A stretch of DNA of 64,000 bases from Podospora anserina. Its lineage: Eukaryota. The stretch is taken from the NCBI GenBank assembly GCA_017654855.1, contig CM030338.1, positions 3,782,001 through 3,846,000 of the forward strand, written 5' to 3'. The first letter of the stretch is position 1; each line of letters starts with the position of its first letter. Under the pieces are notes generated by a model. That model was not told the origin of the DNA. It searched no databases and was given only the letters and a program-made list of their open reading frames with translations. This document shows, one piece after another, positions 46,714-64,000 of the stretch. Position numbers and translations under genes: made by a program.

Positions 46714-47823
46714 GGTGTGCGCGTATTGTCTCTGCCGTGGTGTGTCGTGTGGTAGGTAGGGTGGTAACCTGTGCCACTTCTTCTGGACAAGAAGGAATAG
46801 AAGCAAAAGGCTGCAAGAGCTCGGTACGGTGAGAAATGTTCCCGATCATCATGGTTGCGGTCCTTAAGGATTTTGACCTTGAATCCTGGTCAGCAGCCTG
46901 ATGCCAAGCATCGCCAGCGGATGAGAAGCTGACGCCGAGGACTGATGCGATGAGAAGGGCTACCCCTATTTGACATGGCTCCCTGTTCGATCTTCAGCAA
47001 ACTGGCAAGGATCGGCCTTTATCCAGCGCTTTCTGAGCAAGTGCCCGTTGTTGATCCACTGGCCCATCAAACCTTTTTCTGCCATTAATAGTGGATTCTG
47101 GAACTGCCATTCCTTAGTTGTCCTCGTGGTAGAGTAAGAACTATAAAGGTAGCGCGCTGCCTTGCTTGGTGGAGCGGCTATAGGGTTGAGATCACGGCAG
47201 TTCTATTTTCGGCGAATATAATGGAGCTGCTTTTGGGAGGCTGTGGTTTTCCAGACAGGGGCAAAAGGCTTGAAAGACTGCAGCCTGAAGTGGCGGCCTT
47301 TTGAGACCCAGGATCGGGATGAGCGATGTTGCGCTGGTTTCTGACGTTTTTGATCTTGATTGGCTTTGCTGCTTGGTATAAGGATTTAAGCTCTTTGATC
47401 GAAAGCCAAGCGAGAGCCAAGGGAGCCAAGTGCTGAGCCAAGTCCACTGGTGTTACGGGTGGAACACGGTTAAGTCGGCATCAGGACTGTGGTCCAAAGG
47501 TTGAGGTGAGAACTGAACTGGTGCAAACTGCCCTGTGGTGTGAGTTGGCGAAGGGGAGCGAGGAAAAGAAGAGAATGTGGCGACCTTCTACCACACCCTC
47601 CCTGATTCCCTTTTGCTCGAGCGCCATAATGACTGGCTGTGGTGTTTGCGTACCAGGTGGCTTTTCTTATCACATTAGCTCTATATAATCAATTTCTTCA
47701 CGTCGAGGCGTTACTATCTTTCAAGGTACCTATAAATCAACATTTTTAAAACATATTTACTATCTTCCAACGCCTGTTACATCTGGCACTACAATACAAA
47801 ACATGATAGCCGATACGCTGAAG

Positions 47824-50800
47824 TTATTTGAGCACGGAGACCTTCGATAGGGACGCGAAGGGGTTGATCAAATGCTGCCTCGTGTCCGTCGGCAGAACCT
47901 GCTTCTCATCACCAGCCATAAAACATGGCCGCAACCCATTCCCCCAGACCAAGAGAGTATCCGGCTGCAGCATACTACCAGCCTCGTCCAACACCACAGC
48001 CTCGGCGGTCCCGTTGAGATCCGCATACTGCTTGTCGCCGGCGGCATGTGGATGGTACAAACCACATCGGCCTCCTGATCACCATCCCCAAGAGTCTGAT
48101 GATCTTGATCTCCAGATCACGTGCGCTCTCCGCCGATTGTTGGCCCAAATCTGTTTCCTGCTCACCCTCAACCCAAGTAACAATCTCTGCGAACGTATCG
48201 TCAGCGCGGATGGACTCTCTGAGCTCCCTGAGACGATAGGGCAAAAGAAAAGTGTTTCCCTCTAGCTGCTTCAGGGTGAGCCACAACCAGAATGCAGCGG
48301 ATAGCTTGAACTGCCACTTGTTGGCCAATGATTGTCCCCCACCATGGCAGCAAGCGTCTGGGTCATGCCAGTTCCAGCACACCCCAGGATGACATAGACG
48401 CCCATGCGAGCCACGGTAAAATATTCATGAGTTCATCTCGCAGTCCCTCAACCACGTAGCCAAGGCAGAGCTCCTTCGGCGTGGGGTGAATGTTGTCCAC
48501 AACAGAGAAGCAAGGAAGTGACTGGGGCCGCCGAAGTGCCATGGTCGCCATGCCGTCCACAGGCTCATCTCCTGTTGCCCTCCCTCGACGATGGCCGAAG
48601 GTTCATGTTGGCAGTTGCCAGAGACTTCCAGAACCCAGAACCGGTGAGAAGGTCGCGCTTGAGCAAGTGCTTGAACCAGTCGTCGGGGTTGGAGTCGCGG
48701 TCGTATGGGTTACAACCGAACGCATTGTAAACAGCGTTAACTCTCTCTTCGCAATACTGAGACCCACGTCGAACTTGAGGTAGATTTGCTGAAGACTCGG
48801 ATAGTTCTGGGGGGTCCTCTGGCGAATTCTGAAGCCCAAGTCAAACCGATCGGGGCGGCGAACTATTAGGACAAGATCCGGGCGCGGCCTTATAGTGTTG
48901 TACTTATCCGTATCCAGGTAATACGGGGGCCAGACTTTGGTGTCCCTGTCCATCTCGGGGTCGTCCTCAATCTCAGTGGAAGAGGGCAACTTCAGTGGAA
49001 GACGGCAACTCAAAAGCAATGTCAAACCGAGCATTAACCCCGCCAACACAGCGATCGATTGACGACTTGAACCGGAGACGATTAGAACCCTACAGACGCA
49101 AAGCGTTAGCAAACGAAAATAACAACACGACAGCTCGTTCCCAGGCCCTCACATCCGGCTCCTAACCACACAACAGTTCGTTTGCAGACCCTCACATCCA
49201 TCTCCTAGCCCTCGTTCTAGATTCCCAATCTCTCGCTCATGCCCCCGAGCCGCTTGCTCATGCCCCTAATTATTACTAACAAACGCAATCCCTCTCTGGA
49301 GCCTTTGGCATGAGCTCGTTATACTTGGCGATGTCCCATGGCCTAAGAGAAATGTCAGTTCTAGTGCATTGACAAACCAGGACACGAAATGCAATGCAAC
49401 TTACCCGAACAGATACCCATTGAAAATGAGCGCCTTGTCCAAAGGCAACTTGTTGAAGAACCAGTTGTTGGTGTGTCTTACACAATCGAGAGATAGGACA
49501 ACGAGGGTGAACCGTCTTCGGGCAGCAAATTCCAGCAGACGCACTCCATCAAAAAGACCATTGTTGAAAAGGGCCTTGTCGTCGGCGTCGGTGGCAGTGG
49601 TGGTCGGCATCCCGAGGTTGACCAACTGAGCAGACTTGCCATCCTTGACGGTAATGACAATCTCAGCGAGCTTCGATGGGTCCACTCGCTTGCCTTTGTT
49701 CACCATGGGCTGGAGAAGAGCCCTCTTGGTGGCTGAGGGGCACAGCACGGGCAGTAAACTCGCCATGTTAGACCCTGAAGTCCAACCGCTGAACACTGGT
49801 GATCTCTTCACGGGAGCTGAAATAGGTTGCCGAATCCGAAGGACTGCGAGGAATCGTGAACATGAATCCAACGGATGGTAAAGCACGTCGCTGAGCGGAG
49901 TAATGACCACGGTCGAATGGCATCAGGGATCAAAACACAACGGGGAAGGAACGCATAGACACGGCCGAAGAGCAGCACACCCGACTCGATAAGGTAATGG
50001 TATAAAATTCATTTTTCTTAGCTCGCACCATGGTGTAGTCCGAGACTTGAATGTTCAATACATGACGCGATCACAAAACCCCTTCCGGCTCGGCCATGGC
50101 TCAAAACACCTGCCCTCCCACTGAATCGCCGTCCCTTCTTTCAGGGAATACTCTTGACTAACACGAACCACCTTTGCTTCATGTTTCAGGGCCTCCCCAT
50201 ACGCAGCCAAATATCTGGCCCCAGTGCTGGAGTAATTGAATGGTAGATCACCGGCACAGGTATTGTAGTTAAACTGTGACTTGAGCGTGATTCCCTCGAG
50301 CTCCACGTCGGTCAAGCGTCTCAAGGCCATATTTTGAAGCTGTTCATCCGGCTGTTCCATCGGCTGAAAGCACGAAAACGTGCCTGATGAAAGGCATAAA
50401 CACTTGTAAATTCTGAGGTGAATCCATAGCAATGTCAGCCCTGCCAAAAGGCTGTATCATGTAATGAGAAGCTTCGTCAGTTTGCCGCACCATGCTCCTC
50501 GCTTTCAACATCCCCAAACTCCGCCACGAAAGAAGCTCGTGTGCTTTGCCACAGTGGTGTTGAGTTGCCCAATGTCTTTGATGTGCAGACGTAAAGCAGG
50601 GGCAATAGGCGTCTTTGAAGTAAACCTGCATCAAATTAAAAGGCGTGTATATTAAATAGAGATAAAAATAGACGTGGTCTTGTCAGTAAACGTTGTCTCA
50701 GTGTCAGCAAGACCATGGGCCCTCCCTAGCCTCCGTTCCAATGAGTATTGTCCAAAGAGACCCGACTCTGTCCTTATCGTCATAAATCGTGACCATCGTG

Positions 50801-50950
50801 TGGAGAGACTTCAAGAGGTGTGCTGGTTTCCCATCTCGGAAATTCACCTCCGGGGTGATGTCATCGGGCCGGTGATGCTTGGCACGGACCTCGGGGCAGC
50901 TCCGGGACTCCACTGCAACCGACCTGGCGATCATGGCGTATCGGCAGCAT
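47824..50950 (-). pseudogene. Fragmented SF1 (Upf1/DNA2/NAM7-like) helicase-related gene
   Basis: VVLDEAG (motif II) and MAGDEKQ (motif III) at 47.9-48.0 kb; upstream broken same-strand ORF fragments; no intact Walker A seen; 5' extent uncertain. Confidence 0.55.
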
Positions 50951-50993
50951 GACGCTTGATCTCATCAAATCTTCCCTGCTCTTTGGTGTCCAT

Positions 50994-51239
50994 TTATCGG
51001 CCTGAGATCTTCTCCCACAGACTGGATCCCTTTCGAGGATGGGCGGGTTCGACGGGTTTAAGTTGACTCCCCGTCAGCTTGTTGATGGCATCCAGTACCT
51101 TCAGGTGTTCTGTCTTGAGCGCCTCAAAGTCCTCGTCGAGCTGCTTATGCCACGGATATAAAACGGTCACCTGGAAACACAGCGCTGTAGTGGCAACGGC
51201 AAAGTTCGTGATGCTGACAAGCCTGGTGATGAAGGCCAT
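50994..51239 (-). CDS. Small conserved single-TM protein
   Basis: MAFITRLVSITNFAVATTALCFQVTVLYPWHKQLDEDFEALK: TM segment followed by coiled coil. Confidence 0.7.
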   Translation of the reverse strand: MAFITRLVSITNFAVATTALCFQVTVLYPWHKQLDEDFEALKTEHLKVLDAINKLTGSQLKPVEPAHPRKGSSLWEKISGR

Positions 51240-51912
51240 TTTAATCTGTTGAAACAAGCGAGCGGTGATTGTCTGCCACAACTGATCTAATCGAGTACTG
51301 GATATTAGCAACGACTTGCATGATGCGCAATCTTGTCAAAATTATACGCACGGGACTGTCCGGTTGAGCGGAACTGAGGGGGAGTTGGACCTTGAAGAAA
51401 AGTTCAAGAAGGGAGAAAACGATGAAGCGGGGAGTTGCTGTTTATTAGTGCGGCGACGCATTTGCCGACACCCGGAGTGACAACGGATGGATCATGGATA
51501 ACACGAGCTTCAGGTTCAATTTGTGGCAAAACTGGCGAGGGCCCCATAAGTTCACACACGACAGGGATGGATGATTAGACGTCTTCTCACGTTGTATCAG
51601 ATGAATCATCGTCCCAAGTGATTTGTCCTTGCAGTGACTGATTGATGCTGGCGGGAAAAGGGACAGGAAGAGGTTGCCTCGGTATTATCATCCACGTGTC
51701 CACGTAGGGTGAGATTTCGTGATCCGGACCCAATGCCGGCGCCCACGCCGCAGCGGACCGAGACCAAATGCGGCGTTTTAGGTATAGCTTGAGACAACAA
51801 GTCCGTGTCGCCGGGTGAAGACGGCGTTTGGACCCACACTGCCGTCCGGTCTCGTGGGGTCAGAGTCATGCTAAGTTCCCAAGTGGCGTGATAGCGACCA
51901 AACGTGTATCAA

Positions 51913-52662
51913 TCAATTCTCATTGAACACCCGGGCACGCAGCCAGGCGGCAGCGTCTTGGATACCATGCGGAGAGTGAAACCAATGCCCACCAGTCGGG
52001 TACTCCCGCCATTCCACCTGAGCACCGAAGCTTGAGAGGCTGTCCCGGACCTCCCGTCCATTCTGGACCCTAGAAAGAGGGTCGTCGGTGCAGTGTTGCA
52101 CCAGCACGGGTGTCGTCCGCACTGCGCTGTCGTCCTCGGGGACCTCGGCCAGATCCAATATCGATCTCATTTTGGCTAATGTTCTGCCGGAAAAGGGCAT
52201 CCTCCCACTGAAGACCATGAGACCCCCAAGGCCTTTAGCTACGTTGAGAACTGTATGCACAGCTGTCGCGCCGCCCTGACTCAGCCCTGCAAGGACGACC
52301 TTCTCTCGCTGTCCACCCAAGCTGGCCACCTCCCTGTCCACAAGCAACCGGATGCTTGCGACGCTTTCCTTCAGGCCCTCGATTTGGAGTTCTTCCTTTT
52401 CGTGTAAATTGGCAATGTCCCAGGTGTCAAACCATTGCGACATGCGGGCGCCGGGGAATCTAACAGGAGAGCGCAACTCGCTTTGAGGGAAGACCCAACG
52501 GACCGAGGGAAACAGCTCGGGGAGGGATGGTGATTCCGAGTCGCGCCATTCCTGGAAAGAGTGCATAAAGTTTCTGGCTGTGTCTCCGCGGCCGTGAAGG
52601 AAGATTATGGTATTTTCGTGTCCTGCGGTCGGAGGGATGGTGCAGACAGACAGCACCGCCAT
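51913..52662 (-). CDS. Phospholipase/carboxylesterase (acyl-protein thioesterase-like alpha/beta hydrolase)
   Basis: IFLHGRGD, WFDTW, GLSQGG nucleophile, D in HCTDDPL, H in GGHWF. Confidence 0.9.
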   Translation of the reverse strand: MAVLSVCTIPPTAGHENTIIFLHGRGDTARNFMHSFQEWRDSESPSLPELFPSVRWVFPQSELRSPVRFPGARMSQWFDTWDIANLHEKEELQIEGLKESVASIRLLVDREVASLGGQREKVVLAGLSQGGATAVHTVLNVAKGLGGLMVFSGRMPFSGRTLAKMRSILDLAEVPEDDSAVRTTPVLVQHCTDDPLSRVQNGREVRDSLSSFGAQVEWREYPTGGHWFHSPHGIQDAAAWLRARVFNEN

Positions 52663-53222
52663 CTTGCGCTGTCTGTGGTTTCGGAACAAACTGTGGGTCA
52701 CCCGCCTGGAGCAGCCAATTCAGGGTGTCGTTCACGTTATCATATCCTAGGGTTAGGGTTACACAGAGTCCCTCGTCAAGCTTTGGATTGTTTTTTCAAT
52801 TTGTAGAGAAAACAACATAAACAAGTTGGGGCCCCAACTTGTCGAATGAACGACTGATATGAAACAGGTACCTAGTTCCCTTCCTTTCGATACGTTTAGT
52901 TGTCCACCTCACTCTTCTGACTTCTCCAAATCTCCACTCAACCGTCCACAATCATGTGACCTTCTTCGACATGACTACCTACGCGTTTACACCGAGATGG
53001 CCATGGCAGGCGAGGCGGCCGCTCTGGTTGCTGACAATAGGTAATGAACGCTATCATTTGTACAAAGGCCCTAATAAAAGATGCTAATTAAACTTTTCAA
53101 GCTGGTGGAGAGATGTTTAAAGATAGTTGATCGAGAGGCTCTTCTTCTTAGGTGCATTTGTAGCTGGGCCGCGGCCGGTTCCCTCCATCACTCGCATCAC
53201 CGATACCGTATTGTCATCCTGT

Positions 53223-55248
53223 CTACACGTCCAACTTATCGATCAGCGACCACATTCCATCCCATTCCCAATAGTCAACCATGCCTTCTCGACTTTCGGT
53301 AATCATATGCATTTTCCCAGCGGAGCTCCCTTGCGCCAGACTCCAGACTTGTTTTACCTCTTGACCCGGGCCAGCTGTTACCCTTTGGATCATTTCCCAC
53401 TGTTCTCCCATTTGTGGACGCCATCGCCAGTGCTCCACAGCCCCATTAACGGCAACAACCAACTGAAAGCCGCACGGAGTAGTCTCATCCTTTGTGTCAA
53501 AGTTGTCCTGGATCATGACGGGAACTGCGTCCCCTGGGGCTCCTTCTCCGAAAGCCTCGCCCTCATTCCATGTGTCCGACTTTCCTTCTCTCCAGAACGT
53601 TTGCATCTTGCCGTTTTTCCGAACGGCAACTGTGTAAAGATTGCCGTGAGAGTTTCCGGAAAAATCATACATGTCGAATCCAATGTTGGATTGCACAAGG
53701 CTTGCACCACTCTGGGTGATGTTCATTGCAATTGGCGACTGCATCATTTTCCAGGCTGTGGACTGAGGCTCTTGCCGGTACTATTCGGTGATGACCTTGG
53801 TTAGTTCAAACCCAACACGCCTGATCCGCCGGTAGGCCACTAACCTCATTTAGGGTCCCATCGATATGCCTTACTACAAGTAGCAAGGACCCGTCATCAA
53901 TCTGCGTGAATCCCGTGAATCCATCCACTTTCGATTGCCCCAAGCTCGACACCTGCGACCACTTCTTGTCCGTGTAGGCCCACTGCTGTATGCTTTTATC
54001 CTCAGTAACAGCCACAGCATGAAAGTCTCGATTTCTGGAGGTTCCAATGATGGACGGCTGACCAAGGACACCCACGCCCTCATCGCTTGACAACTGTGAC
54101 ACCTCGCTCCATTCACCAGTGTCGCCGTTCCTCGAGATGTGTCTAATGCCCTTGACCGGGTCAGACAAAAGCAGCTCAAAGTTCCTATGAGTCTCTCCGT
54201 CCCCGGACTGCATCATGTTCCCGCTTTGGTGCCTCCTCCGAGTCCAAGGGTCGGGGTTAACGTTTCTGAGACCATATTTGACCCAAATATCGATGTTCGC
54301 ATTATCGTATCTGGGTACAGCCTTGGTTAGCCCCTTTAACTTCAGCCAACACAGAACAGAACAGACCTACGCAAAATAAACAAACCCTCCGTCACCCCAG
54401 GTCTTGCCCCAAGAATTCTTCATGATCCACGCCCCTCTTTCATCATCATAACCAACCACCAGGGCGATGTGGTTGCCCGTATTGCCTGATGCACCGTCCC
54501 ACGCATACACATGATGTGGATTCGTTGGGTCAGGCTTCCACTCACCAAAGTTGTCATACAGGATAAATGTTGCCACGATAGGTCCGTACTCATGGAGCCA
54601 CCTCTTTTGATCCTCGATGGCACCAATAGCTTGGAAATTACCGATATGCGTAGTTCTCCCCGACCGGTCACTGCAGTGGACATGCGCTGTTGTACTGTCT
54701 TGATACGGATCGCACGCCCAGTCAGCAATGCCCGGCTTCTCACCCCCGTGGGTCGAGGAGTTGGTATTCCCTGCAACATACTGCAGTGTCGCTTCTGCAC
54801 TGCCGGTAGTCTCACAAATCGCCCCGATACCATCGTGGACGTCTGCCTCGCTTCGCTTTGACCAGACAGAGTGTTCTATCCTGACTTGGGATTCGATGAG
54901 GGCTGTCACGGCAAAGGCCCAGCAAGACTGGCAGACTCCTTGGTCTTGAGGGGTGGTGATGAAGTTGACCCCTGATCGGTTGCGCCAGTCTACCACGGGT
55001 GGTAGAGAGCTCGAGGCAAAGTTGATGTTTGCGGCAGAAACCTTCTTGCTTGACGAGTGTTGAGCCTGGGGAAAGTCGCCCAATGGCTGAAAGATGGGAG
55101 CTCCAATGTCACTCCACTCGATGGGGGGTACTGAAGAAGCAGGGACTGGGGCAGGCCATGCTACACCTTTGCGCGGAGGAAGCGCATGGACGCCTGGTAT
55201 TGTAAGAAGCGAAAGAAACAGCAGCTCAACCAAAGCCATGTCGTTCAT
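53223..55248 (-). CDS. Secreted papain-family (C1A) cysteine peptidase with C-terminal Trp-rich beta-repeat region, 2 introns
   Basis: Signal peptide; VDWR, QDQGVCQSCWAFA, GNHIALVVGY, WIMKNSWG.. WG; downstream exons with repeated W-containing beta units. Confidence 0.85.
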
Positions 55249-55870
55249 GATGAAATCGCCTCCAAGAGAGAAACTTTTTCCATCAGATGCCGTCCATTCA
55301 CGCAAAAAGAGAATCTTTTGTTGATGTAAATTTAAACTCTTTCTATAATGCGGCATTTGCAGCCCAGGAAGCATTACACGGACAGATCTTCCCGTCCCCA
55401 CAGAATTCAGTGTTCGTTTGCTCGAGTGTAGTTCCGAAGACAGCCCTACTCGGACCTCTTATTGATGATCAATTTTTTCACCACCATGGACCCAGTTCCG
55501 GCGTTCTCTTCCACCAATGGTCGCAAGACCAACCGAACCGCCGTGGATCGAACCTGGTTCGACCCATGCCAGATCTCGCGTAGATCACCCGATGAGCCGT
55601 CTGAAACGCGGTAGAGACTCCACATCGGCACACGCATTCAGCCGTCTGTTTGGATGCGGGATTGCATCAACCGGTGGAAATCAGAACTTAACAGGACTCA
55701 ACTATAGATTCTGTGGATACCCATCACAATTCCGGCTTTTGTAAGGGACAGAAGGAAGATTGGAAAGTGCTGCTAGGGGTATGCTGACAAGAGAATAAGA
55801 GACATCGATATGATATAAAGTGGTGAAGAGAAAGAATATACGCATCTCTACCATCTTTAGATATCTAGTA

Positions 55871-57748
55871 ACGTATATTATAAGCGAGTCGTACATATAA
55901 GCGAGTCGTACAGTCTCCACCACGACGCGTCCTCCTTACACCTAACATCAATTTTTTCCACAACCCAACATGCCTCCTACTTCAAAGGAAGCCAGGATAC
56001 TTTTAGCCCTTGAGGCTCTCCAAAAGGACGAAAAATTAAGCCTCCGAGCTATAGCTAAGCTTTACAACGTACCACCTATGACTCTCTCTAACCGACGCGC
56101 CGGCCGGCCTACATAACACGATACTACGCCTAGATCGAAAAAGCTTACTTAATCCGAAAAGGAGGCTATTATTTATTATATTATTAAGCTATCTACGCGA
56201 GCTTTTCCACTAAGGTTACGTAGTGTAGAAGATATAGTTAATTAACTATTATACGTACGCAACGCGCCCCCTATTAGTAAACTTTAAATATATAATTTTA
56301 TTAAACGTTAATTATAGTTTTATATATATTTTACGTGTAAATATAATTATTAAAGGGTTAAATACGAAAATCCGAAGGTTATTACCGAATAATTTACGTT
56401 TATACGGAATATTAAAATTAAATATAGTATTATAAATAATAATATTTTTAATTTTAACGAAATTAGGTTTATAATAAATATTATTTTCGTAAATATAATA
56501 ATTATAATCTCGGACGGCCTTAGTAAAGTAAAATTAGTTTAGTTTAATAATCGCGAATAAAAAATAATAATTTAAAAAGTTAATACCTTTAATTAAATTA
56601 TTCCGCCCTTTATTATTTTAACCGTATAATATTATTTTATTAATTAATATATTAAGTATAATTTATTATTTATTTAATATATTATAATTATTAATAATAA
56701 TTAAATTATTAATCCGGTAAATTTAAATTAAATTAAGTATTTCGATTATTATATAACGTTCCGTACTAAAAATAAATATTAATTATTAATCTTTAATAAT
56801 TACAAAAATTATTATTTAATTAAATTCGAATACTATTATTAATAAAATAATATTATTATACTTTATATATTTTTATATTTCTTTTACTTTTTTTAATTAC
56901 TTAATATTAATTATTTTAGGTTATTAAAATAGGTATATAGCCGCTAGATCGAGGGTTTAATATATATATATATTAATTACGTAAGTAAGCTTGAGTTTCT
57001 CTATACTTTCCGTAAAACTTTTTTCGCTTCTATAATGGAGAAAAATATATAAAGTAGCTTTATAATATTAATTTTATACTATACGATTTAAAGAAAGTAC
57101 TTTCTAAATTAAATATAAAGCTTTATACGCTAATACCTTTATTTATAAAACCGGGTACGGTATTTCTTTAAATATTTTAAATATTATAAAATCTTTAAGA
57201 AACTAACTTATATTTAATATTTATTAAAATTTATATTATTAATTATTAAAATAACTTTCCGACTTTAATATTAAATACTATAAATTAATTTACTAAAAGT
57301 ATAATAATTATAATATATTAAGTGGCCCTCTTATAGGTAGAGGTCTCTTCGCTCCGTAAGGCTAATAAGGTACTAAGTAAGCGCCGGAGAGCTAAAAAAA
57401 TACGTGTACGGCTCGGAGGATCACTTACTGTGCAAGATGCACAGGATCTACTAGACCAGAAGGCCGTGGGTGGGGAGGTAGTGGAAGAAATATAGCCGGA
57501 TAGCGGTAGTGCAGGGGGGGCTCGTACGACGGTTCGGTGCTGTGGTGTGTGCGGCAAGCCTGGCCATAACGCGCGCACTTGCTAGGAGGCTGGGGAATCA
57601 TCTGATTCAGCCGTTTCTGATGTAATTGTAGTTGCTTCCTAATGTTGTTGCGGTATAATTGAGGATAGTTGTTGTAGGGTGGTGGAGACTGTACGACTCG
57701 CTTATATGTACGACTCGCTTATATGTACGACTCGCTTATAATATACGT
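55871..57748 (+). mobile_element. Fot1/pogo (Tc1-mariner superfamily) DNA transposon, RIP-inactivated
   Basis: TA target duplication (55869-70 and 57749-50); TIRs acgtatattataagcgagtcgtaca..gtctccaccac; ATG 55970 MPPTSKEARILLALEAL..SLRAIAKLYNVP (HTH); CGVCGKPGHNARTC near 57540; extremely AT/TpA-rich core with many stops. Confidence 0.95.
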
Positions 57749-57830
57749 TAACTATCTTTTAATACCTATTCACCATCTTTAAATACCTACTTACTATCTT
57801 TAGATATTTATTTACTATCTTTAAAGCCAT
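57749..57830. repeat. 21-bp repeat array interrupted by the transposon
   Basis: taactatcttttaatacctatt caccatctttaaatacctactt actatctttagatatttattt; a matching unit lies left of the element at 55845-55870. Confidence 0.7.
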
Positions 57831-59929
57831 CGTAGTTCTCTTTGGGGAAATCTCAAGTATGTTTTAGTGCCACCATCTTGCGAGTAAGAAGTCATCGCCT
57901 TCTGTTAATGATTACCTTAGGTGTTCTAACACGAAAGAACGCCCTTTTAAAGACAAGGTCTAATTTTTGATATACTTCGATAAGTTCCAGTAAATAACGG
58001 ATTCCTTAGCCACTCAACCCATGATATATTGATCACTGTTGGTTTTACGCTAATCTCTTTCACGAAAAGGTGTTGCAAGATCGCCTCCTAAAAGCAACTC
58101 CCTACCTAGGTACCAGGTAAACAAACTCCACGAGCAGCCCGCTCCTCATCACGAGTGGACCGTGACAGTACCTCCGTTGTTGAAAACACTGAGCTTCCTT
58201 CTCTCGATGTTCGGTAGCATGGGATTAATCGTGAAATCTGCAATTCCAGAATGGCTGACAAACCTATCTCCCAGCAAAAGGGAGATCGTCAGAGAAATTA
58301 TTTCATGGCTTACATATCGAAATGGGTTACATTTAAGAGAGTAGGTAGGTAAACATAAGATGAACGGGGACATAGATAGGAGCGCATCTAGACCTATAAC
58401 ATTAGGTAAGGAAGCAGACATCCTGTGGGAGGATGAGTTGCTCCCGGATTCAGTTAGGTTGCTCTTAGGGCTTCCGCCCTGTCGGCCAGGCACAAATTTT
58501 GTTAGTCTAGATATGTCTTCTGCTCCCCGGAGATGTTTTTCCTAGTGCTGCTCAACATCATCACTTTTCTCGCAGTTCTGCTGGCGCTCCACACATCCGC
58601 TACGAATCATGTGTTGCCCCAAAAATAGGAGGTATTTTTTGCGATGCAGGTGGGGGTTTCGAGTGATGGTTCCAACTTGCGGCGAAGAGATCGAGATTCA
58701 ACAGGTTGAAAAGCAGGTTTTGACCAGACCTGTGGGGAGGAGATGGGCCGTGGGAGTTGCGCTGTTCGGTCCAGCTAGACCAAGTACGTCTAGTGGATAG
58801 TGGGTGGTTGAGCGTTCAATCCTTGAAAATATCCGTTGTAAAACCAAGGCAGCAAATTTGCACATGCCCGTATGGATGCACAGCATTTCTCTCCATATCG
58901 GTGGAGTTTGGCCTTGACTCGCAACCCACCCGACCCTTGTAGAAACGAAAGTTCCTCTGTTCGGGTCCGGGAACCATTGGCATCTCGGTTGGGTTGGAGG
59001 TGTGTGTAAGGTAGGTGGCTTCATCGTGCATTGGGGGGTTACCATCAACCAGTGAGCTGTTATCGTCGGTTTTGGTTTCTAAGACGTACTCGGTCCTGCA
59101 ACTCCAGTTCATGTAGACCGACGTAACTGAAGATAGAAATCCATGGTAAGGCGGGTCGTATTCGGGCATTGCTTGCCATGTTTTATGCAGCTCAGAGCTG
59201 TAGAGCTGAAGCTAGCTGATGGGGAGTCGGCATGCAGACCATCTGAGACAGGTATTTCCGCCTGCAGATCCTGCAAATCGCCACTCTTTATGGCCAAGCG
59301 TCTCGGTGTTCGAAATTCTGGTTCCTGATTCTCATCATCAGCAAAGCCGCATCCCGCATCATGCCACCATCAGCATGTCACCTTCAGCATCCGCTATCGG
59401 GTTGGCAGGTGGATTCTCGCAAGGTCCCCCACCATTTTTGGCACCGATTTTGTGGCGGGCGAGTCGCCGCGGGCCGTCCAGGAGTGCAGTAGCTCAACCG
59501 CCAAGCATCTTGACCATCTTGATAGCTGTCAGATGCTGCGCAATCCTGGTATTAGCGTGGGGCTCCCGTGGGATCGTCACAGGCATTACTCTGTATTTGG
59601 TCTGGTGCCTGATAGTGATAGTTCTCGCTGGCATGATCCCTCACCCGCTCCCAGACTACCATTGGGTCGAAGATCCGGCATCGTTCCCCTATAGGCGATC
59701 CAAGTTTCCCTCAGACCCCACGACGACTAGGTAACTTAGGTAGGCAGGTAGCGAGAGGAGTAGACACTGAAAGATGCAGCGTGACGTGAGGAGACGGGCA
59801 TTTCAAATTCCCGGGAGCCCATCTTCATAAAGTAGCCGTTCTCCTTCAGTCTCGGATGGCTAGAGGTGTGCTGCAGGCTGCCAGTCCAGTGTGTGTTGTT
59901 GTGCAACGATCATCCGCAGAATCCATACC

Positions 59930-61731
59930 ATGGTTCGTGTTCTGGCCATTCTCGGAGCCATCGCCTTCGGCCTCGGCTGTGCGGATGCCACTGTCTTCCC
60001 ATACACATCAGTTTGCGAACAAATCAACGGAAATCTCACCAGTGCGAGTGATGTGATCTTCCCAAGTAAGACACCTGCAGAGAGCTGATTCGGTTTTTTG
60101 CAACTAACCGTTCGCGAGCAGTCCAGGCGGTCACGTACCAGAAAGAGACCCAACATTGGTTCCTATCCTCAGATCAAAACCCTTCCTGTGTGGTTCGCGT
60201 TGGGTCCAGTCAAGATATCTCCAGAGTTCTTCAGATCATCCGAGACACAAAGACCCCTTTTGCCGTCCAGTCTGGGGGCCATGCCTCCAATCCAGGCTTC
60301 TCTAGCACCACAGGCGTCCACATTTCCCTATCACTACTGGACCAGGTAGTCCTTTCTCCCGACAAGAAGACGGCGGAAATTGGGTTCGGCCAGGTAGGTC
60401 CAACAATCCAGAACAAGATGGGCACCTACTGATATTGCGACAGACCTGGGCCGATGTCTATGACAAGCTTGAACCACACGGACTCAACGTCGTAGGAGGG
60501 AGGGTGATTGGACCTGGTATCGGTGGCTTCACTCTAGGAGGCGGCTATTCATGGTAAGTCTCTTCTGTCACGCGTATCCTGCGTTGTGGTGTCGGATGCC
60601 GATTGCTCTTTTCCTGACATGATCAACATCGTGCATGAGGAAACTCCATTTCGGACAACAGTATTTAACCCCTGGGTAGGAAGACGAATCAGTTCGGGCT
60701 TACCTGTGATACGGTCGAGCTCTTCAACATTGTCCTTCCGGTCAGTACCTAGGCTTGTCCCCTTGTCCGGCCCTACCTATTCTGACATTCCGTCACAGAA
60801 CGGCACAGTCACCACGGCGAGCCCAAGTTACAATCAAGACCTATTCTTTGCCCTCAAGGGCGGCAAGAATCGCTTTGGTATTGTGACCTCCGCAATTTTC
60901 CGAACTCACCCCCAAGGTCGAGTCTGGGGTGGACTCCGCATCTACCCCTCTACCTCTGTCCCAGCCCTTCTCAACGCCACGCGTCTCTTTCAAACGGAGA
61001 ACACGGATCCCAAGGCGGGACTCATCACCACTCTCGAGGGTGGCGCCCTTGGCACTACGGCGCTTGTTCTCATGTTTTACGATGGCCCTGAGAAGCCCCC
61101 CATTTTCGACCTCTTCGATGGCATCCCTTTTCTGGTTAGCGGGACGCTCCCCAATCGCAAGTGGACCAACTTCATCGCCAGCTTTCCCGCCGAGCTGAAG
61201 CTGAACCTCCGGGGAACCTTCGCCAGCGTGTCGACTTCGACACTGACCACGAGGTTCCTGGACGCCATCAAGAATGAGACGGACTCGATTGGGTTGACCA
61301 AGGGCTTGAAGACCGGCACGACAGTGTCATACGACATAGAACCTTTCACCCAGTACGGTGTACATGCCACCGACAGCGCTTTCCCCCACGCTGACTCCCC
61401 TCTGCCTGTAAGTCATAGCATCAACCCCTTGCCACTAACCGTGACCCTGACACTGACTGGTCATTAGCTGAATCTTTACTTCTCCTGGGCCAGCGCTGCC
61501 CACGATGAGTATTGGTATAACCGGATGAAGCAGTCGATTGCTACGCTTAAGCAGGTGGCTATTGAGGAGGGTATCTACTCAGAATCCTTCACTTCGTATC
61601 CAAACTATGCGATCTCGGGGACAACGGCAGAGGAGCTCTACGGCGAGGCTAATGCGGAGAGACTGAGAGAGATTAGAGACATCTATGACCCCGAAAAGGT
61701 CATGGATCTTGCGGGGGGATTTGAGATTTGA
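59930..61731 (+). CDS. Secreted FAD-linked oxidoreductase (BBE/VAO-like, FAD_binding_4), multi-exon
   Basis: Signal peptide; FAVQSGGHASNPGFSST; VVGGRV..GGFTLGGG; DLFFALKGG.NRFGIVT; YPNYA; YDP. Confidence 0.9.
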
Positions 61732-62180
61732 AGAAATGTACCCAAGGTACTAATGTAATTACTGTTCAATTTCAGTGGTCGAGAAGACCACTAGATGTTG
61801 GAAGGAAAATGTAAAATATTGTGGCGCCTTGTTCTTTTCCGGTTGTCATACCCTGTTGTGATGAAATGTGCGTTTGGTAGCTATCCAACCCCTTTTCTTC
61901 ACCTCCATAGTTGCCTCTCGGCTCATTGGTAGGATATTGCGAATGTCAGTGATAGGAAACGCTTTGGTGCTTCGCATCCAGCTGTTTGCGAACTCGTCCT
62001 GTTTCACGGTTCCCTGTGGTGGTTCGCGGTACACTTTCATCCATCATTCTGCTGCCCCATAAAGTCCTTTACAATTTCCGTGACCCTACTTCTCCTTTTA
62101 ACGCGAGTCGGTGTTGCTGGTGGCGGTTGGCTAGACCGAACAGCGGTTCGCAAAGTCTGCTTCAGGTCAGTTCCTTTGAC

Positions 62181-63530
62181 CTAAATTGTTAATTTTGCTA
62201 TGAGATGAGCACCCACGAATTCTAGTAGTTCGCGCACCCCAAATCCAGTCTCTGGATCACAAAAAAAGTAGCTTGTGGCTCCAATGTCCTTTGTAATGCA
62301 GAGAGGGACGAAGTCATCCGAGTCTTGCGGTTCTTGGAATGGACCGGCGGCTGCGTCTTCATCTGGATTCTTCAGTCCAACCAACACAAGGGGTACCTCC
62401 GGACAATAGCTTTTAATTTCCCATGTCCACTTTCCCAGGATCGCGTCTTTAGCGGCGGTAGGATTCTCGGCGCGGAAGCACAAAAGAACTACGTCAGCCC
62501 CGTTGTATGAGAAAGGTCTCAGTTTGTCGTAGTCTTCTTGTCCTGACGTGTCTTTGAGCTCAAGTTGAAGGTCGACTCCGTCTACTTGGCAACCGATGAC
62601 GCAACTATCAAAGACTGTTGGGCTGTATGGTCCTGGAAGTCTGTTATATGCGAAAGCGCTGAGAAGGCGTGTTTTGCCCGCATTTCGGTCCCCTACAACC
62701 ACACACTTGAACCTCGTGCGAATCGGGGGCTCTTTGAGTGGAGAGGCGGGTTGGAAAGCCTGATCTTGATTGAAGGTCAAAGTTTCGTCGATGGTTGACA
62801 CAGAAGTCTCGACGTCGTGTCCTTTCCGGATGCTAGCGGAGCGGATCGAGTTGAGACGCAGACTGACGGTATCAGAGATGAGATCTTCGTCGTTTTGTGA
62901 GGCAAGAGCAATCTCTTCCAGTGTCTCTAGATCGTCAATTTCGGATATCTCAACCTCAACGATATGGCGTTGTTTGAGAGCGATATCTCCGAAGCAGCGA
63001 GTCATGGCTTCAAGATCGTCGTTCAAATCTTTAAGATGCTGGATCAGTTGTGCAAAATGTTCCCTGTCCGAAATAGCCCACGAAGCGGTATTCCAAAGTC
63101 GGGAGGCTCTTTGTTGTTTCTTCCAGAAGAAAAAAGGGCGTCTTGTACCCAGGGAGCTTGAACCCAACAATTGTAGGGCTGGTGCACGATTGCTACCACG
63201 CTGCTTTGGTGGCACCAGCCCATATCGATTTCTGAGAAGCGACTCATCCTGGAATAGGTCCTTGATACACTCCAGAGTGGCTGTTACTCTTGATCGTAGC
63301 ACGGGATCATCAAGTCGTTTGTCGTACTGCTCCATGCCCATCCCCGATAAGCCACAAGCCTTGCCCCAAGAGAGTAATCGTAGCTCTTGGTTGTCGAATT
63401 TCGTCTCGAGCAGCTTAAAGTCCCTCTCCAATCGAGCTCCCCGCCGAACCAACTGATAACACCCGGCGCATGTTGTGAATAGGCCTGCCAGCCCTATCAC
63501 ACCAATAGCGAGGCCGGCCGTTTCGGCCAT
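62181..63530 (-). CDS. HeLo (HET-S/LopB) domain fused to an atypical Rho-like GTPase domain
   Basis: MAETAGLAIGVIGLAGLFTTC..DFKLLETKFDNQELRLLSWGKACGL..WAISDREHFAQLIQHLKDLNDDL; then KCVVVGDRNAGKT, YSPTVFD, DTSGQEDYDKLRPFSY; a possible terminal intron could extend the CDS to 62037. Confidence 0.88.
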   Translation of the reverse strand: MAETAGLAIGVIGLAGLFTTCAGCYQLVRRGARLERDFKLLETKFDNQELRLLSWGKACGLSGMGMEQYDKRLDDPVLRSRVTATLECIKDLFQDESLLRNRYGLVPPKQRGSNRAPALQLLGSSSLGTRRPFFFWKKQQRASRLWNTASWAISDREHFAQLIQHLKDLNDDLEAMTRCFGDIALKQRHIVEVEISEIDDLETLEEIALASQNDEDLISDTVSLRLNSIRSASIRKGHDVETSVSTIDETLTFNQDQAFQPASPLKEPPIRTRFKCVVVGDRNAGKTRLLSAFAYNRLPGPYSPTVFDSCVIGCQVDGVDLQLELKDTSGQEDYDKLRPFSYNGADVVLLCFRAENPTAAKDAILGKWTWEIKSYCPEVPLVLVGLKNPDEDAAAGPFQEPQDSDDFVPLCITKDIGATSYFFCDPETGFGVRELLEFVGAHLIAKLTI

Positions 63531-64000
63531 TGTTGGTGGAATGTTAGTCAAACGGAGATTCTGCAAATGAAGGATGGAGCGCAGGGCCCGCAACGTTTTG
63601 TCCTCTCCTGGGTCAACTCGGACTTGACAGATTCTGGGGGGCCAAAGAAGCCGGGCAGTGCAGGGAGGCACAGCATCCCAACGTAGTATGCACCTGCTGC
63701 TGCTGCGGGGAAGCCATCGACAGTCTACCCTAACCCTGTTTTATGGGTAATTCCTATGCTGACAAAATTGAACCTTCCTCGACTCCTACAAAAGGATGTT
63801 AGGTATCTTTTAAGATCTCGTAACTATCTTTCCAAGGCGTAACAACTGTCTTTGAAGGCCTCATTATATCTTTCAGTAGGTACCCTTATCCTCACCAGCA
63901 GTCCCAGCTTTCTTACCTACGACACATCATGTCCTTCCACTGCGCTTATATATCACCATGCCTTTTCCCGATAGGATTCACAGGATTAAAAAATGCAAAG

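What the first reader, a model, noticed from the sequence alone, without database searches (positions are those of the whole stretch)
62181..63530. HeLo cell-death domain fused to a degenerate Rho GTPase (possible integrated decoy or switch)
Seen: a canonical HET-S-like HeLo domain followed by a Rho-like G domain. The P-loop GDRNAGKT has Arg at the RhoA G14/Ras G12 position. Switch I (YSPTVFD) and switch II (GQEDYDKLRP) are well kept, while G4 (LKNP) and G5 (CDP in place of CSA) are degenerate. There is no CAAX box in either possible 3' end. Established: Rho switch regions are targets of bacterial toxins. Inference: the domain may be a decoy or nucleotide-state sensor that releases the HeLo pore-former without an amyloid trigger.
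Basis: partly seen in the sequence, partly recalled or inferred. Interest (0 to 1): 0.72.

Follow-up and report, generated by a model that had tools for sequence, protein, structure and literature searches.

The report
HeLo pore-former fused to dead Rho
A Podospora gene joins a HET-S-type membrane-piercing cell-death domain to a Rho-derived domain that can no longer recognise guanine, a conserved and expressed fusion that may show a new way for fungi to control such killer domains.

Summary
On the minus strand, one gene starts at the ATG at 63530. It encodes a HeLo domain (Pfam E 2.8e-48; HET-s structure 2wvn, E 4.6e-13), a disordered linker and a Rho-fold domain (best solved match RhoA, E 3.4e-36).

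The 3' end is now fixed. Contigs from three runs guessed to be RNA skip 62157-62216, a 60-nt GT..AG intron, and each spans both domains. The CDS therefore ends at 62037, giving 477 aa with no CAAX box.

The fusion is a family, not a one-off. I found 19 further HeLo+Rho proteins, in Sordariales, Lulworthiales and Pleosporales.
- None of the 19 keeps a complete NKxD motif or the SAK Ala and Lys.
- Gly at the RhoA-G14 position survives in 1 of 19.
- The phosphate/Mg core and switch II are kept (T19 and D59 in 19 of 19).
- The Rho part is about as conserved as the HeLo part, and far more than the linker. This is not neutral decay.

My reading is a regulated pore-former whose control module is a Rho-derived pseudoGTPase, analogous to MLKL's four-helix bundle plus pseudokinase. 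No paper on this fusion turned up in eight searches. Function, toxicity and nucleotide binding are untested.

The parts
62037..63530 (-). Whole coding region: exon 1, a 60-nt intron, exon 2 and the stop codon; 477 aa
   Evidence: ORF and translation. Splice seen. Exon 2 translation is identical to the C-terminus of P0002.
62217..63530 (-). Exon 1, residues 1-438. The ATG at 63530 is the first in-frame ATG.
   Evidence: The stop-to-stop frame 62181..63740 has no Met upstream of MAETAG. Homologs start at the same place.
62157..62216 (-). Intron of 60 nt: GTGGGT donor, CTGAC branch-like site, CAG acceptor. It lies inside Rho helix alpha5.
   Evidence: Skipped in one contig each of X1, X2 and X10, but not in X15. 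Sequence. An intron sits at the same spot in metagenome locus L002.
62037..62156 (-). Exon 2, residues 439-477, plus the stop codon at 62039-62037
62832..63530 (-). HeLo domain, residues 1-233
   Evidence: Pfam PF14479, E 2.8e-48. PDB 2wvn_A, E 4.6e-13 over residues 1-229. The AF2 model has helices up to residue 233.
63447..63521 (-). N-terminal hydrophobic, glycine-rich helix, residues 4-28. It is the counterpart of the buried membrane-inserting segment of HET-S.
   Evidence: The most hydrophobic 19-residue windows of the whole protein start at residues 4-7 (mean Kyte-Doolittle 1.8). It aligns to HET-s residues 1-34. The HET-S mechanism is taken from passages of PMC3531502.
62727..62831 (-). 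Linker, residues 234-268; poorly conserved and predicted disordered
   Evidence: pLDDT below 50 for residues 238-258. Identity to P0003 and P0004 is 52% and 48%, against more than 70% in both domains.
62121..62726 (-). Rho-fold domain, residues 269-450, interrupted by the intron
   Evidence: Pfam Ras, E 5.3e-23. RhoA, E 3.4e-36. Foldseek best match is RhoA, E 1.7e-12, with target TM-scores of 0.79-0.85 among the top 10.
62670..62693 (-). P-loop GDRNAGKT, residues 280-287. R282 sits at the RhoA G14 / Ras G12 position.
   Evidence: Read from the DNA. Alignment to RhoA. Family counts.
62601..62627 (-). Switch I, YSPTVFDSC, residues 302-310. T305 corresponds to RhoA T37.
62514..62552 (-). Switch II, DTSGQEDYDKLRP, residues 327-339. 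This is the most conserved segment of the Rho part across the family.
62364..62375 (-). G4 remnant LKNP, residues 386-389, in place of NKKD. The guanine-specifying Asp is lost.
   Evidence: No complete NKxD-type motif in any of the 19 family members.
62250..62261 (-). G5 position CDPE, residues 424-427, in place of CSAK. It is a motif conserved within the family.
   Evidence: D at position 160 in 10 of 19 and P at 161 in 10 of 19; Ala and Lys in 0 of 19.
62040..62120 (-). C-terminal tail, residues 451-477: proline-rich, then basic (RVKRRSR), then a short predicted helix. No CAAX box.
   Evidence: helix 463-472; 89% identical in P0003, 63% in P0004; no CAAX in any of 19.
61820..63587 (-). Stretch covered by all three spliced RNA-like contigs. 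It is a single transcript body spanning both domains with untranslated ends.
   Evidence: X1 covers 61700-63729, X10 covers 61727-63587 and X2 covers 61820-63659 (table 8).

Best explanation
The gene encodes a single-chain, regulated membrane-attacking protein. The N-terminal HET-S-type HeLo domain is the executioner, with its buried hydrophobic N-terminal helix. The C-terminal domain is a Rho-derived pseudoGTPase. It has lost guanine-base recognition (G4 and G5), the prenylation signal and, through R282 at the G14 position, probably GTP hydrolysis. It keeps the Rho fold, the phosphate/Mg-binding core and the switch II surface.

I propose that this dead-switch domain takes the role of the amyloid tail in HET-S, the NOD module in HeLo-NLRs, or the pseudokinase in MLKL. 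It would hold or report a state, such as partner binding at the switch surface, modification, or base-unspecific nucleotide binding. It would convert that state, probably through oligomerisation, into release of the HeLo helix.

Shown here: domain identities, one spliced transcript, family-wide conservation, and the pattern of motif loss and retention.

Inferred, not tested: toxicity of the HeLo part, autoinhibition, the nature of the trigger, and any role in defence or cell death.
For: Domain identity:
- HeLo: Pfam E 2.8e-48; full-length match to the HET-s HeLo structure.
- The N-terminal segment is the most hydrophobic of the protein.
- It lacks the D23 and P33 residues that inactivate HET-s; the window has G23 and R33 (alignment; significance from passages of PMC3531502).
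- Rho fold.

One gene:
- A single contig spans both domains in 3 of 3 RNA-like runs laid. The 60-nt intron is removed in those and present in the DNA-like run.

A conserved family:
- 19 further HeLo+Rho proteins among 180 stored proteins.
- Named members come from Sordariales, Lulworthiales and Pleosporales.
- Metagenome loci L002/L003, L010 and L018 carry both domains with open exons.

Constraint:
- The Rho part is 81% and 74% identical in the two closest orthologs, against 86% and 72% for HeLo and 52% and 48% for the linker.

PseudoGTPase pattern over the 19:
- Complete NKxD-type motif in 0 of 19; S160 in 1, A161 in 0, K162 in 0; Gly at G14 in 1; G17 in 7.
- Kept: K18 in 16, T19 in 19, D59 in 19, G62 in 18, E64 in 18, Y66 in 17.
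- Switch II is the best conserved segment of the Rho part (0.64, against a domain mean of 0.49). The insert region is the worst (0.19).

Other points:
- No CAAX in any of 19.
- The precedent of an executioner domain joined to a dead enzyme, including fungal HELL plus kinase/pseudokinase proteins, appears in passages of PMC12881547.
Against: - Nothing here measures toxicity, membrane binding, nucleotide binding or any trigger.
- The window's own P-loop (GxxxxGKT), T305, D327, G330 and Q331 are intact. This particular protein may still bind, or even slowly turn over, a nucleotide. 'Pseudo' rests on G4, G5 and R282 alone.
- The closest other partners of this HeLo clade look catalytically intact. 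Of 60 HeLo relatives, 19 carry UQ_con, 15 show an HPN...C motif and 9 a Walker A motif. The HeLo module is therefore not generally paired with dead enzymes.
- The AF2 model gives no confident contact between the domains (pTM 0.55, disordered linker).
- In HET-S the HeLo domain alone binds liposomes but does not cause leakage (passages of PMC3531502). The Rho part would therefore need to supply oligomerisation, for which I have no evidence.
Confidence: 0.5

Rival explanations
1. Integrated decoy or guard. The Rho-like domain mimics the fungus's own Rho switch surface. An effector or toxin that binds or modifies Rho switch regions also hits this copy. That event releases the HeLo pore-former, giving effector-triggered cell death without an NLR.
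For: - Switch II, and much of switch I, is kept while the parts needed only for a working GTPase are lost (guanine pocket, insert, prenylation).
- The same HeLo clade is also fused to copies of other housekeeping folds: E2 in 19 of 60 and AAA in 8 of 60.
- The Rho parts sit on long branches compared with ordinary Rho proteins (end branches 1.2-2.4 against a median of 0.24).
- From my own recall, not from any call: Rho switch residues are common toxin targets, and Pyrin guards RhoA in mammals.
Against: - The residues I recall as classical targets are not uniformly kept: T37 in 9 of 19, N41 in 2 of 19.
- No toxin or effector of Podospora is known to me, and none was sought.
- The E2 and AAA partners look catalytically intact rather than decoy-like.
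- No whole genome was available, so similarity to the fungus's own Rho paralogs could not be measured.
- The tree does not tie the domain to one Rho paralog.
Confidence: 0.17
2. A working but atypical nucleotide switch. The domain still binds a nucleotide through its phosphate/Mg core with altered or relaxed base specificity, for example ATP. As I recall, this has been reported for RhoBTB3. Nucleotide-dependent oligomerisation would then activate HeLo, as a miniature of the NOD module of HeLo-NLRs.
For: - In the window protein GxxxxGKT, T305, DTSGQ and Q331 are all intact.
- K18 is kept in 16 of 19, T19 in 19 and D59 in 19.
- G5 is replaced by a conserved new motif (CDP) rather than by noise.
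- AAA ATPases with an intact Walker A are alternative partners of this HeLo clade.
Against: - G17 is kept in only 7 of 19 and T37 in 9 of 19. P0011, P0039 and P0046 lack the P-loop lysine, so nucleotide binding cannot be required family-wide.
- G4 is variable, not re-specified: LKNP, LKCE, LNQP, IRAR and others.
- A non-Gly residue at the G14 position argues against cycling. This is established knowledge for Ras G12 and Rho G14, recalled and not taken from any call.
Confidence: 0.18
3. Not a death protein. The HeLo domain serves as a membrane-targeting or anchoring module that replaces the lost prenyl anchor. The protein would be a membrane-tethered Rho-like scaffold in ordinary signalling or morphogenesis.
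For: - CAAX is lost in all 19, while a membrane-competent N-terminal helix is present.
- A basic stretch followed by a short helix sits at the C-terminus, as in Rho polybasic regions.
- Spliced contigs were found in all three RNA-like runs laid, which come from three studies. The protein is evidently tolerated when made.
- E2 and AAA partners with intact active sites could likewise be membrane-tethered enzymes.
Against: - In the only studied case, the HeLo helix is buried in the soluble fold and its exposure is lethal (passages of PMC3531502).
- HeLo domains are otherwise found as effector domains of NLRs (passages of PMC12881547).
- Loss of G4 and G5 and of the Rho insert argues against ordinary Rho signalling.
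Confidence: 0.12
4. A decaying chance fusion or mis-annotation with no function of its own.
For: Several G motifs are lost. Automatic names in databases disagree with one another: 'Rho-related BTB domain-containing protein 1', 'gtp-binding protein rho2', 'prion-inhibition and propagation-domain-containing protein'.
Against: - The frame is open and a spliced transcript spans both domains.
- The architecture is conserved across two fungal classes.
- The Rho part is about as conserved as the HeLo part and far more than the linker.
- An intron position is shared with a distant relative.
Confidence: 0.03

Closest known systems
HET-S of Podospora anserina (HeLo domain plus prion-forming tail, partnered with the NLR NWD2)
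   Same: Homologous HeLo domain over its whole length (2wvn_A, E 4.6e-13, residues 1-229). The N-terminal position and the hydrophobic first helix are the same.
   Different: - There is no amyloid repeat tail. The C-terminal partner is a 180-residue Rho-fold domain.
- No NLR was seen in the 18 kb of window on one side: Pfam was run on 10 of 22 ORFs of at least 130 aa. The other side is cut off by the window end.
MLKL (four-helix bundle plus pseudokinase) and fungal HELL-kinase/pseudokinase proteins
   Same: An executioner helical bundle at the N-terminus is joined by a linker to a domain derived from a signalling enzyme that has lost catalytic motifs. Fungal HELL plus kinase/pseudokinase proteins are mentioned in passages of PMC12881547. 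MLKL is listed as a nucleotide-binding pseudokinase in passages of PMC5593906.
   Different: The regulatory domain is a small-GTPase fold, not a kinase fold. No activating enzyme is known. The analogy is architectural only.
Atypical Rho proteins and pseudoGTPases (Rnd family, RhoBTB, p190RhoGAP pG1/pG2, CENP-M)
   Same: GTPase fold with missing G motifs and a non-glycine residue at the G14 position. It meets the definition given in PMC5593906. Databases name the ortholog after RhoBTB.
   Different: - As I recall, the Rnd proteins keep the guanine-binding motifs; here G4 and G5 are both lost.
- There is no BTB domain, and the protein is fused to a pore-forming domain.
- The nucleotide-binding class (i, ii or iii) is unknown.
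HeLo-NACHT / HeLo-NB-ARC 'all-in-one' fungal NLRs
   Same: A HeLo effector sits at the N-terminus of a P-loop NTPase-fold domain (passages of PMC3531502 and PMC12881547).
   Different: The P-loop domain is a small GTPase of about 180 residues, not a STAND NTPase. There are no C-terminal repeats.
Integrated decoys of plant NLRs and the Pyrin guard of RhoA (recalled, not from any call)
   Same: The concept is the same: a copy or monitor of a host target coupled to a death output.
   Different: No receptor module is present, and no effector is known. Nothing was tested here.

Membership tests
HeLo domain (Pfam PF14479) | Sequence match above the curated threshold | tested here: met
   164.9 bits against a cut-off of 23.2, residues 6-206. 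PDB 2wvn_A, E 4.6e-13.
HeLo domain (Pfam PF14479) | First domain of the protein, with a hydrophobic helix at the extreme N-terminus that could span a membrane | tested here: met
   The domain starts at residue 1. The most hydrophobic 19-residue windows start at residues 4-7. The criterion is taken from passages of PMC3531502.
HeLo domain (Pfam PF14479) | Membrane permeabilisation or toxicity on activation | not testable with these tools
   Needs liposome or in vivo assays.
HET-S-type amyloid-signalling pair | C-terminal prion-forming repeats, and an adjacent NLR gene carrying the matching motif | tested here: not met
   - The C-terminal partner is a Rho fold.
- The 27-residue tail is basic and proline-rich.
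- No NACHT or NB-ARC was found among the 10 of 22 large ORFs scanned in 44000-62100.
- The upstream side is not visible, because the window ends at 64000.
Rho family small GTPase | Small-GTPase fold closest to Rho/Rac/Cdc42 | tested here: met
   All 60 best PDB sequence hits shown are Rho-class. Foldseek top match is RhoA, with target TM-scores of 0.79-0.85 among the top 10.
Rho family small GTPase | G1 P-loop GxxxxGK[ST] | tested here: met
   GDRNAGKT in the window. However, Arg sits at the G14 position, and the motif is complete in only 7 of 19 relatives.
Rho family small GTPase | G2 Thr (switch I) and G3 DxxGQ (switch II) | tested here: met
   T305 and D327-T-S-G-Q331 are present. In the family, T37 is kept in 9 of 19, D59 in 19, G62 in 18 and Q63 in 14.
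Rho family small GTPase | G4 [NT]KxD guanine-specificity motif | tested here: not met
   LKNP in the window. No complete motif in any of 19 relatives.
Rho family small GTPase | G5 SAK/SAx motif | tested here: not met
   CDPE in the window. Ser is kept in 1 of 19, Ala in 0 and Lys in 0.
Rho family small GTPase | Rho insert helix between beta5 and alpha4 | tested here: not met
   - A segment of similar length is present, but it is acidic.
- It is 5% identical to a RhoA-like sequence and is the least conserved region (0.19).
- It is predicted as coil, with pLDDT about 60.
Rho family small GTPase | C-terminal CAAX prenylation box | tested here: not met
   The spliced C-terminus ends ...QQNDG. No CAAX in any of 19 relatives.
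PseudoGTPase (definition in PMC5593906) | [quoted passage not shown] | tested here: met
   Fold. G4 and G5 missing. Definition read in passages.
PseudoGTPase (definition in PMC5593906) | Demonstrated defect in nucleotide binding or hydrolysis (class i, ii or iii) | not testable with these tools
   Needs biochemical assays.
Integrated decoy | The domain is bound or modified by a pathogen effector that targets the genuine host protein, and this triggers the output | not testable with these tools
   No effector is known. Only the conservation of switch residues could be counted.

The most novel reading that the evidence does not exclude
HeLo-Rho is a one-chain guard-and-executioner. The dead Rho copy acts as bait for toxins or effectors that attack Rho switch regions, and a hit on it directly unleashes a pore-former. 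This would be effector-triggered immunity in a fungus without any NLR.

Together with the HeLo-E2 and HeLo-AAA relatives, it would point to a family of 'HeLo plus host-target copy' sensors.
Probability: 0.15. Interest if true: 0.9.

Novelty: new variant of a known kind. Interest (0 to 1): 0.6.

Why it matters
HeLo and HeLo-like domains are the fungal relatives of the MLKL four-helix bundle and of plant CC/RPW8 domains. The ways of switching them on that I know of are amyloid templating from an NLR, direct fusion to an NLR, and (for HELL domains) fusion to a kinase-like domain.

A conserved, expressed fusion to a Rho-derived pseudoGTPase would add a fourth control logic. It would also be a natural case of a small-GTPase fold repurposed as the regulator of a pore-former.

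It gives a tractable system in a model fungus, with one gene of 477 aa and no partner required a priori. Two questions could be asked with it:
- How is a HeLo domain kept silent and then released?
- Do fungi monitor attack on their Rho GTPases?

Tried and rejected
- **Whole genome.** None is held. Paralogs and the fungus's own Rho genes could not be compared.
- **RNA runs.** No RNA holder is listed on record. The runs I used are only guessed to be RNA. The splice junction itself is what I rely on.
- **Complex prediction.** HeLo (1-237) against the Rho part (262-477) gave the verdict 'no answer' (score 0.00, controls not run). This is no evidence either way.
- **Homolog search with the Rho part alone.** Only 126 candidates were scored and there was 1 hit. 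It was uninformative about the donor paralog.
- **Tree of Rho domains.** I used 74 rows and the quick method. I left out Rho-only rows whose matched stretch was 150 residues or shorter, and kept only each protein's best-scoring Rho stretch. The 19 fused domains can form one group, but with zero branch support and many long branches. The tree shows neither a single origin nor a donor paralog.
- **Earlier findings of this scan.** Nothing by place, words or sequence.
- **Paralogs in the window.** tblastn of both domains against the window found only the gene itself.
- **Neighbourhood.**
  - Within 44000-62100 I found only an alpha/beta hydrolase, a papain-like protease and a borderline BBE-type oxidase tail.
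  - There is no NLR there, so a gene-pair arrangement of the HET-S/NWD2 kind is not supported on that side.
- **Literature.**
  - Eight searches found no paper describing a HeLo-Rho or HeLo-GTPase protein.
  - A 2025 review of fungal cell death has no occurrence of the word 'GTPase'.
  - Supplementary tables were closed. Those of Podospora HeLo and NLR surveys (for example PMC4835503, which counts 7 non-NLR HeLo genes) may list this gene.
- **Stand-alone HeLo paralogs.** I rejected the idea that the roughly 294-aa 'HeLo only' hits are stand-alone paralogs.
  - Of 21 examined, 9 end exactly in 'YK' and one in 'FK'. These are the first residues of the Rho beta1 strand.
  - Metagenome locus L018 shows '...FYK', then a stop, then an intron, then the Rho exon.
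  - These hits are therefore most likely gene calls cut at an intron.
Full report
**What is in the sequence**

The finding lies on the minus strand. From the ATG at 63530 an uninterrupted frame runs to 62181, giving 449 aa. No in-frame ATG lies upstream within the stop-to-stop frame.

Pfam finds two domains:
- HeLo (PF14479) at residues 6-206, E 2.8e-48, 164.9 bits against a cut-off of 23.2.
- Ras (PF00071) at residues 275-388, E 5.3e-23, with a weaker Roc match.

Against solved structures the C-terminal part is closest to RhoA (8zny_A, E 3.4e-36, residues 273-439). All 60 rows shown are RhoA, RhoB, RhoC, Rac1 or fungal RHO1. The first 250 residues match the HET-s/HET-S HeLo structures 2wvn, 2wvo and 2wvq, with E 4.6e-13 over residues 1-229. 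The acidic helices that look like a linker therefore belong to the HeLo fold.

| Motif | Sequence | Residues | Note |
|---|---|---|---|
| P-loop | GDRNAGKT | 280-287 | R282 at the RhoA G14 position |
| Switch I | YSPTVFDSC | 302-310 | |
| Switch II | DTSGQEDYDKLRP | 327-339 | |
| G4 | LKNP | 386-389 | replaces NKKD |
| G5 | CDPE | 424-427 | replaces CSAK |

**Gene structure and expression**

The closest database protein is P0002, from Podospora pseudoanserina. It differs at 5 of 438 positions in exon 1 and is 477 aa long. Its end...ELLEF|TLRTAVRSS...QQNDG, is encoded by a second window frame at 62037-62180.

I laid Logan contigs of four runs on 61700-64000. Three of them (X1, X2, X10) come from three studies and are only guessed to be RNA. 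Each has one contig that skips 62157-62216, which is 60 nt with CT..AC on the plus strand, so GT..AG on the gene's strand. The DNA-like run X15 reads straight through.

The intron has a GTGGGT donor, a CTGAC branch-like site and a CAG acceptor. The spliced reading continues Rho helix alpha5 in register with RhoA.

The same three contigs each span both domains:
- X1: 61700-63729
- X10: 61727-63587
- X2: 61820-63659

So the CDS is 63530-62217 plus 62156-62040, with the stop at 62039-62037, giving 477 aa. The two domains are on one transcript, and there is no CAAX box.

Caveat: none of these runs is on record as RNA. The canonical junction, missing from the DNA-like run, is the evidence.

**The fusion is a conserved family**

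- The word-indexed search found 11 of 37 hits carrying both PF14479 and PF00071.
- The exhaustive representative search gave 12,868 hits at E ≤ 0.001. I looked only at its best 150.
- Scoring all 180 stored proteins with the two halves of P0002 gave 20 with both domains (the window's own and 19 others), 99 with HeLo only and 61 with Rho only.
- A profile search added Didymosphaeria variabile and gave the name Bimuria novae-zelandiae for P0045; 12 of 38 hits carried both families.

Named members come from:
- Sordariales: Podospora, Cercophora, Triangularia, Cladorrhinum, Immersiella
- Lulworthiales: Zalerion
- Pleosporales: Lentithecium, Bimuria, Didymosphaeria

A metagenome scan returned 22 loci. 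Four of them (L002 and L003, which look like the same gene, plus L010 and L018) carry both domains in separate exons.

The roughly 294-aa 'HeLo only' hits are probably truncated models of the same family. Of 21 examined, 9 end exactly in 'YK' and one in 'FK', the start of Rho strand beta1. L018 reads '...FYK', then a stop, then an intron, then the Rho exon.

The window's alpha5 intron is at the same position in L002 (FEA|ATRAAIRAK). Several database models (P0005, P0009, P0010, P0043, P0049) stop a few residues after that point, as the unspliced window ORF does.

**Pattern of loss and retention**

Counts are over the 19 relatives, in RhoA numbering.

| Position or motif | Kept in |
|---|---|
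| Gly at G14 | 1 of 19 (R 4, L 4, K 3, others) |
| G17 | 7 of 19 |
| K18 | 16 of 19 |
| T19 | 19 of 19 |
| Y34 | 15 of 19 |
| T37 | 9 of 19 |
| D59 | 19 of 19 |
| G62 | 18 of 19 |
| Q63 | 14 of 19 |
| E64 | 18 of 19 |
| Y66 | 17 of 19 |
| Complete [N/T/L]KxD | 0 of 19 |
| S160 | 1 of 19 |
| A161 | 0 of 19 |
| K162 | 0 of 19 |
| CAAX | 0 of 19 |

By segment, measured as the mean share of the commonest residue:
- Switch II is the most conserved part (0.64, against a domain mean of 0.49), and is 70% identical to a RhoA-like sequence.
- G4 (0.36) and the Rho-insert region (0.19) are the least conserved.
- G5 is conserved within the family (0.63) but unlike RhoA (0.20). It is therefore a replaced motif, not noise.

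Identity to P0002 by region:

| Ortholog | HeLo | Linker | Rho part |
|---|---|---|---|
| P0003 | 86% | 52% | 81% |
| P0004 | 72% | 48% | 74% |
| P0005 | 68% | 36% | 52% |

The Rho part is under constraint of the same order as the HeLo part. I could not run codon-level tests because no orthologous DNA close enough was available.

**Structure**

AlphaFold2 was run on a 74-row alignment with P0002 as target. It gives mean pLDDT 80.2 and pTM 0.55.
- Both domains are confident.
- Residues 238-258 have pLDDT below 50.
- The region where the Rho insert helix would be (about 390-410) is coil at pLDDT about 60.
- A short helix is predicted at 463-472 in the tail.

Foldseek's best matches are RhoA chains (E 1.7e-12, target TM-scores 0.79-0.85 among the top 10). 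No inter-domain confidence is reported by the tool.

**The HeLo part looks competent**

- The most hydrophobic 19-residue windows of the protein start at residues 4-7. They align with the segment of HET-S that is buried in the soluble fold and inserts into the membrane on activation (passages of PMC3531502).
- The two residues that distinguish inactive HET-s, D23 and P33 (passages), are G23 and R33 here (alignment).
[quoted passage not shown] Its C-terminal part supplies both the trigger and the oligomerisation. Any model for the present protein must assign those jobs to the Rho-like part.

**Most likely mechanism**

I read this as a regulated pore-former whose control module is a Rho-derived pseudoGTPase. 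It has a GTPase fold lacking G motifs, which is the definition given in passages of PMC5593906.

By analogy with MLKL, and with the fungal HELL plus kinase/pseudokinase proteins mentioned in passages of PMC12881547, the dead enzyme domain would receive a signal at its conserved switch II surface. It would pass that signal on as release of the HeLo helix, probably with oligomerisation.

The steps after 'two conserved domains on one transcript with this motif pattern' are inference. Confidence is about 0.5.

Three rivals remain open:
- **Decoy for Rho-targeting effectors (0.17).** It is favoured by the keep-the-surface, lose-the-enzyme pattern. It is weakened by the poor retention of T37 and N41.
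- **Still-working, base-unspecific nucleotide switch (0.18).** It is plausible for the Podospora protein, whose phosphate-binding residues are all intact. It cannot hold family-wide, because G17 is kept in only 7 of 19 and three members (P0011, P0039, P0046) lack the P-loop lysine.
- **Non-lethal role, with HeLo as a membrane anchor replacing prenylation (0.12).**

A decaying accident is disfavoured (0.03).

**Context that bears on the model**

I took 60 further close HeLo relatives longer than 380 aa.
- 19 carry a ubiquitin-conjugating E2 domain, 8 an AAA ATPase and 1 ankyrin repeats.
- 15 of the 60 show an intact HPN...C motif and 9 a Walker A motif.
- So this HeLo clade is recombined with several housekeeping-type domains, and those other partners look catalytically intact. 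This cuts both ways for the decoy and pseudoenzyme ideas.

The ESM Atlas lists a cluster of 77 Ascomycota proteins (Ras 96%, PigL_N 12%) as nearest by features, with score 0.92 and 161 shared features. That is a lead only.

**Comparison with what is known, and novelty**

The protein is a member of the HeLo family; its sequence, position and hydrophobic helix all meet the criteria.

It is Rho-derived but is not a bona fide Rho GTPase. Four defining features were tested and not met: G4, G5, the insert helix and the CAAX box.

It is not a HET-S-type amyloid-signalling protein. It has no prion-forming tail, and no NLR was seen on the visible side.

The proteins are in public databases under conflicting automatic names. 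Eight full-text searches found no description of a HeLo-Rho or HeLo-GTPase protein. Supplementary tables, which may list the gene, were closed.

I rate it a new variant of a known kind: a HeLo executioner with a previously undescribed regulatory partner. Interest is 0.6.

Noticed in passing
Proteins P0031-P0171 (relatives), not in the window: The closest HeLo relatives of this gene are fused to other housekeeping-type domains. Of 60, 19 carry UQ_con (E2), 8 carry AAA ATPase (5 of 60 also match DUF7025) and 1 carries ankyrin repeats. An HPN...C motif is present in 15 of 60 and a Walker A motif in 9 of 60. HeLo-E2 fusions were not found in my literature searches.
   Followed up: partly
Proteins P0012-P0020, P0024, P0025, P0028; locus L018:900-1100: Database 'HeLo only' proteins of about 294 aa end exactly at the first residues of the Rho beta1 strand ('YK'). 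L018 shows a stop and an intron at that point, followed by the Rho exon. A conserved intron therefore sits at the domain junction in many species. It is absent in the Podospora gene, and many gene models are truncated there.
   Followed up: partly
window 60538-61731 (+): A convergent neighbouring gene ends at 61731. Its last 87 aa give a borderline BBE (berberine-bridge-like oxidase) match, 20.7 bits against a cut-off of 20.6. The X1 contig of 3508 nt runs past 61700, so the 3' ends of the two genes may overlap.
   Followed up: partly
window 63807-64000: Separate RNA-like contigs start at 63807-63880 and run off the window end (X1 record 2, X10 record 4, X2 record 7). Another transcribed gene lies just upstream of the HeLo-Rho gene. 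Its identity cannot be seen in this window.
   Followed up: no
window 51913-52719 (-) and 54367-55458 (-): ORFs matching Abhydrolase_2 (E 1.2e-26) and papain-family Peptidase_C1 (E 2.8e-25). These are ordinary neighbours with no evident link to the finding.
   Followed up: no
Proteins P0040, P0042, P0051, P0057, P0058, P0068: Several unnamed proteins carry two to six tandem Rho-like domains. Examples are P0040 (1207 aa, four stretches) and P0057 (655 aa, six short stretches).
   Followed up: no
ESM Atlas cluster: A cluster of 77 Ascomycota proteins of about 555 aa was returned, with Ras on 96% and PigL_N (PF17111) on 12% of members. I recall PF17111 as a HeLo-like N-terminal domain of fungal STAND proteins. 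This may be a second, separate 'helical N-domain plus Ras-like' architecture. Score 0.92; a lead only.
   Followed up: no
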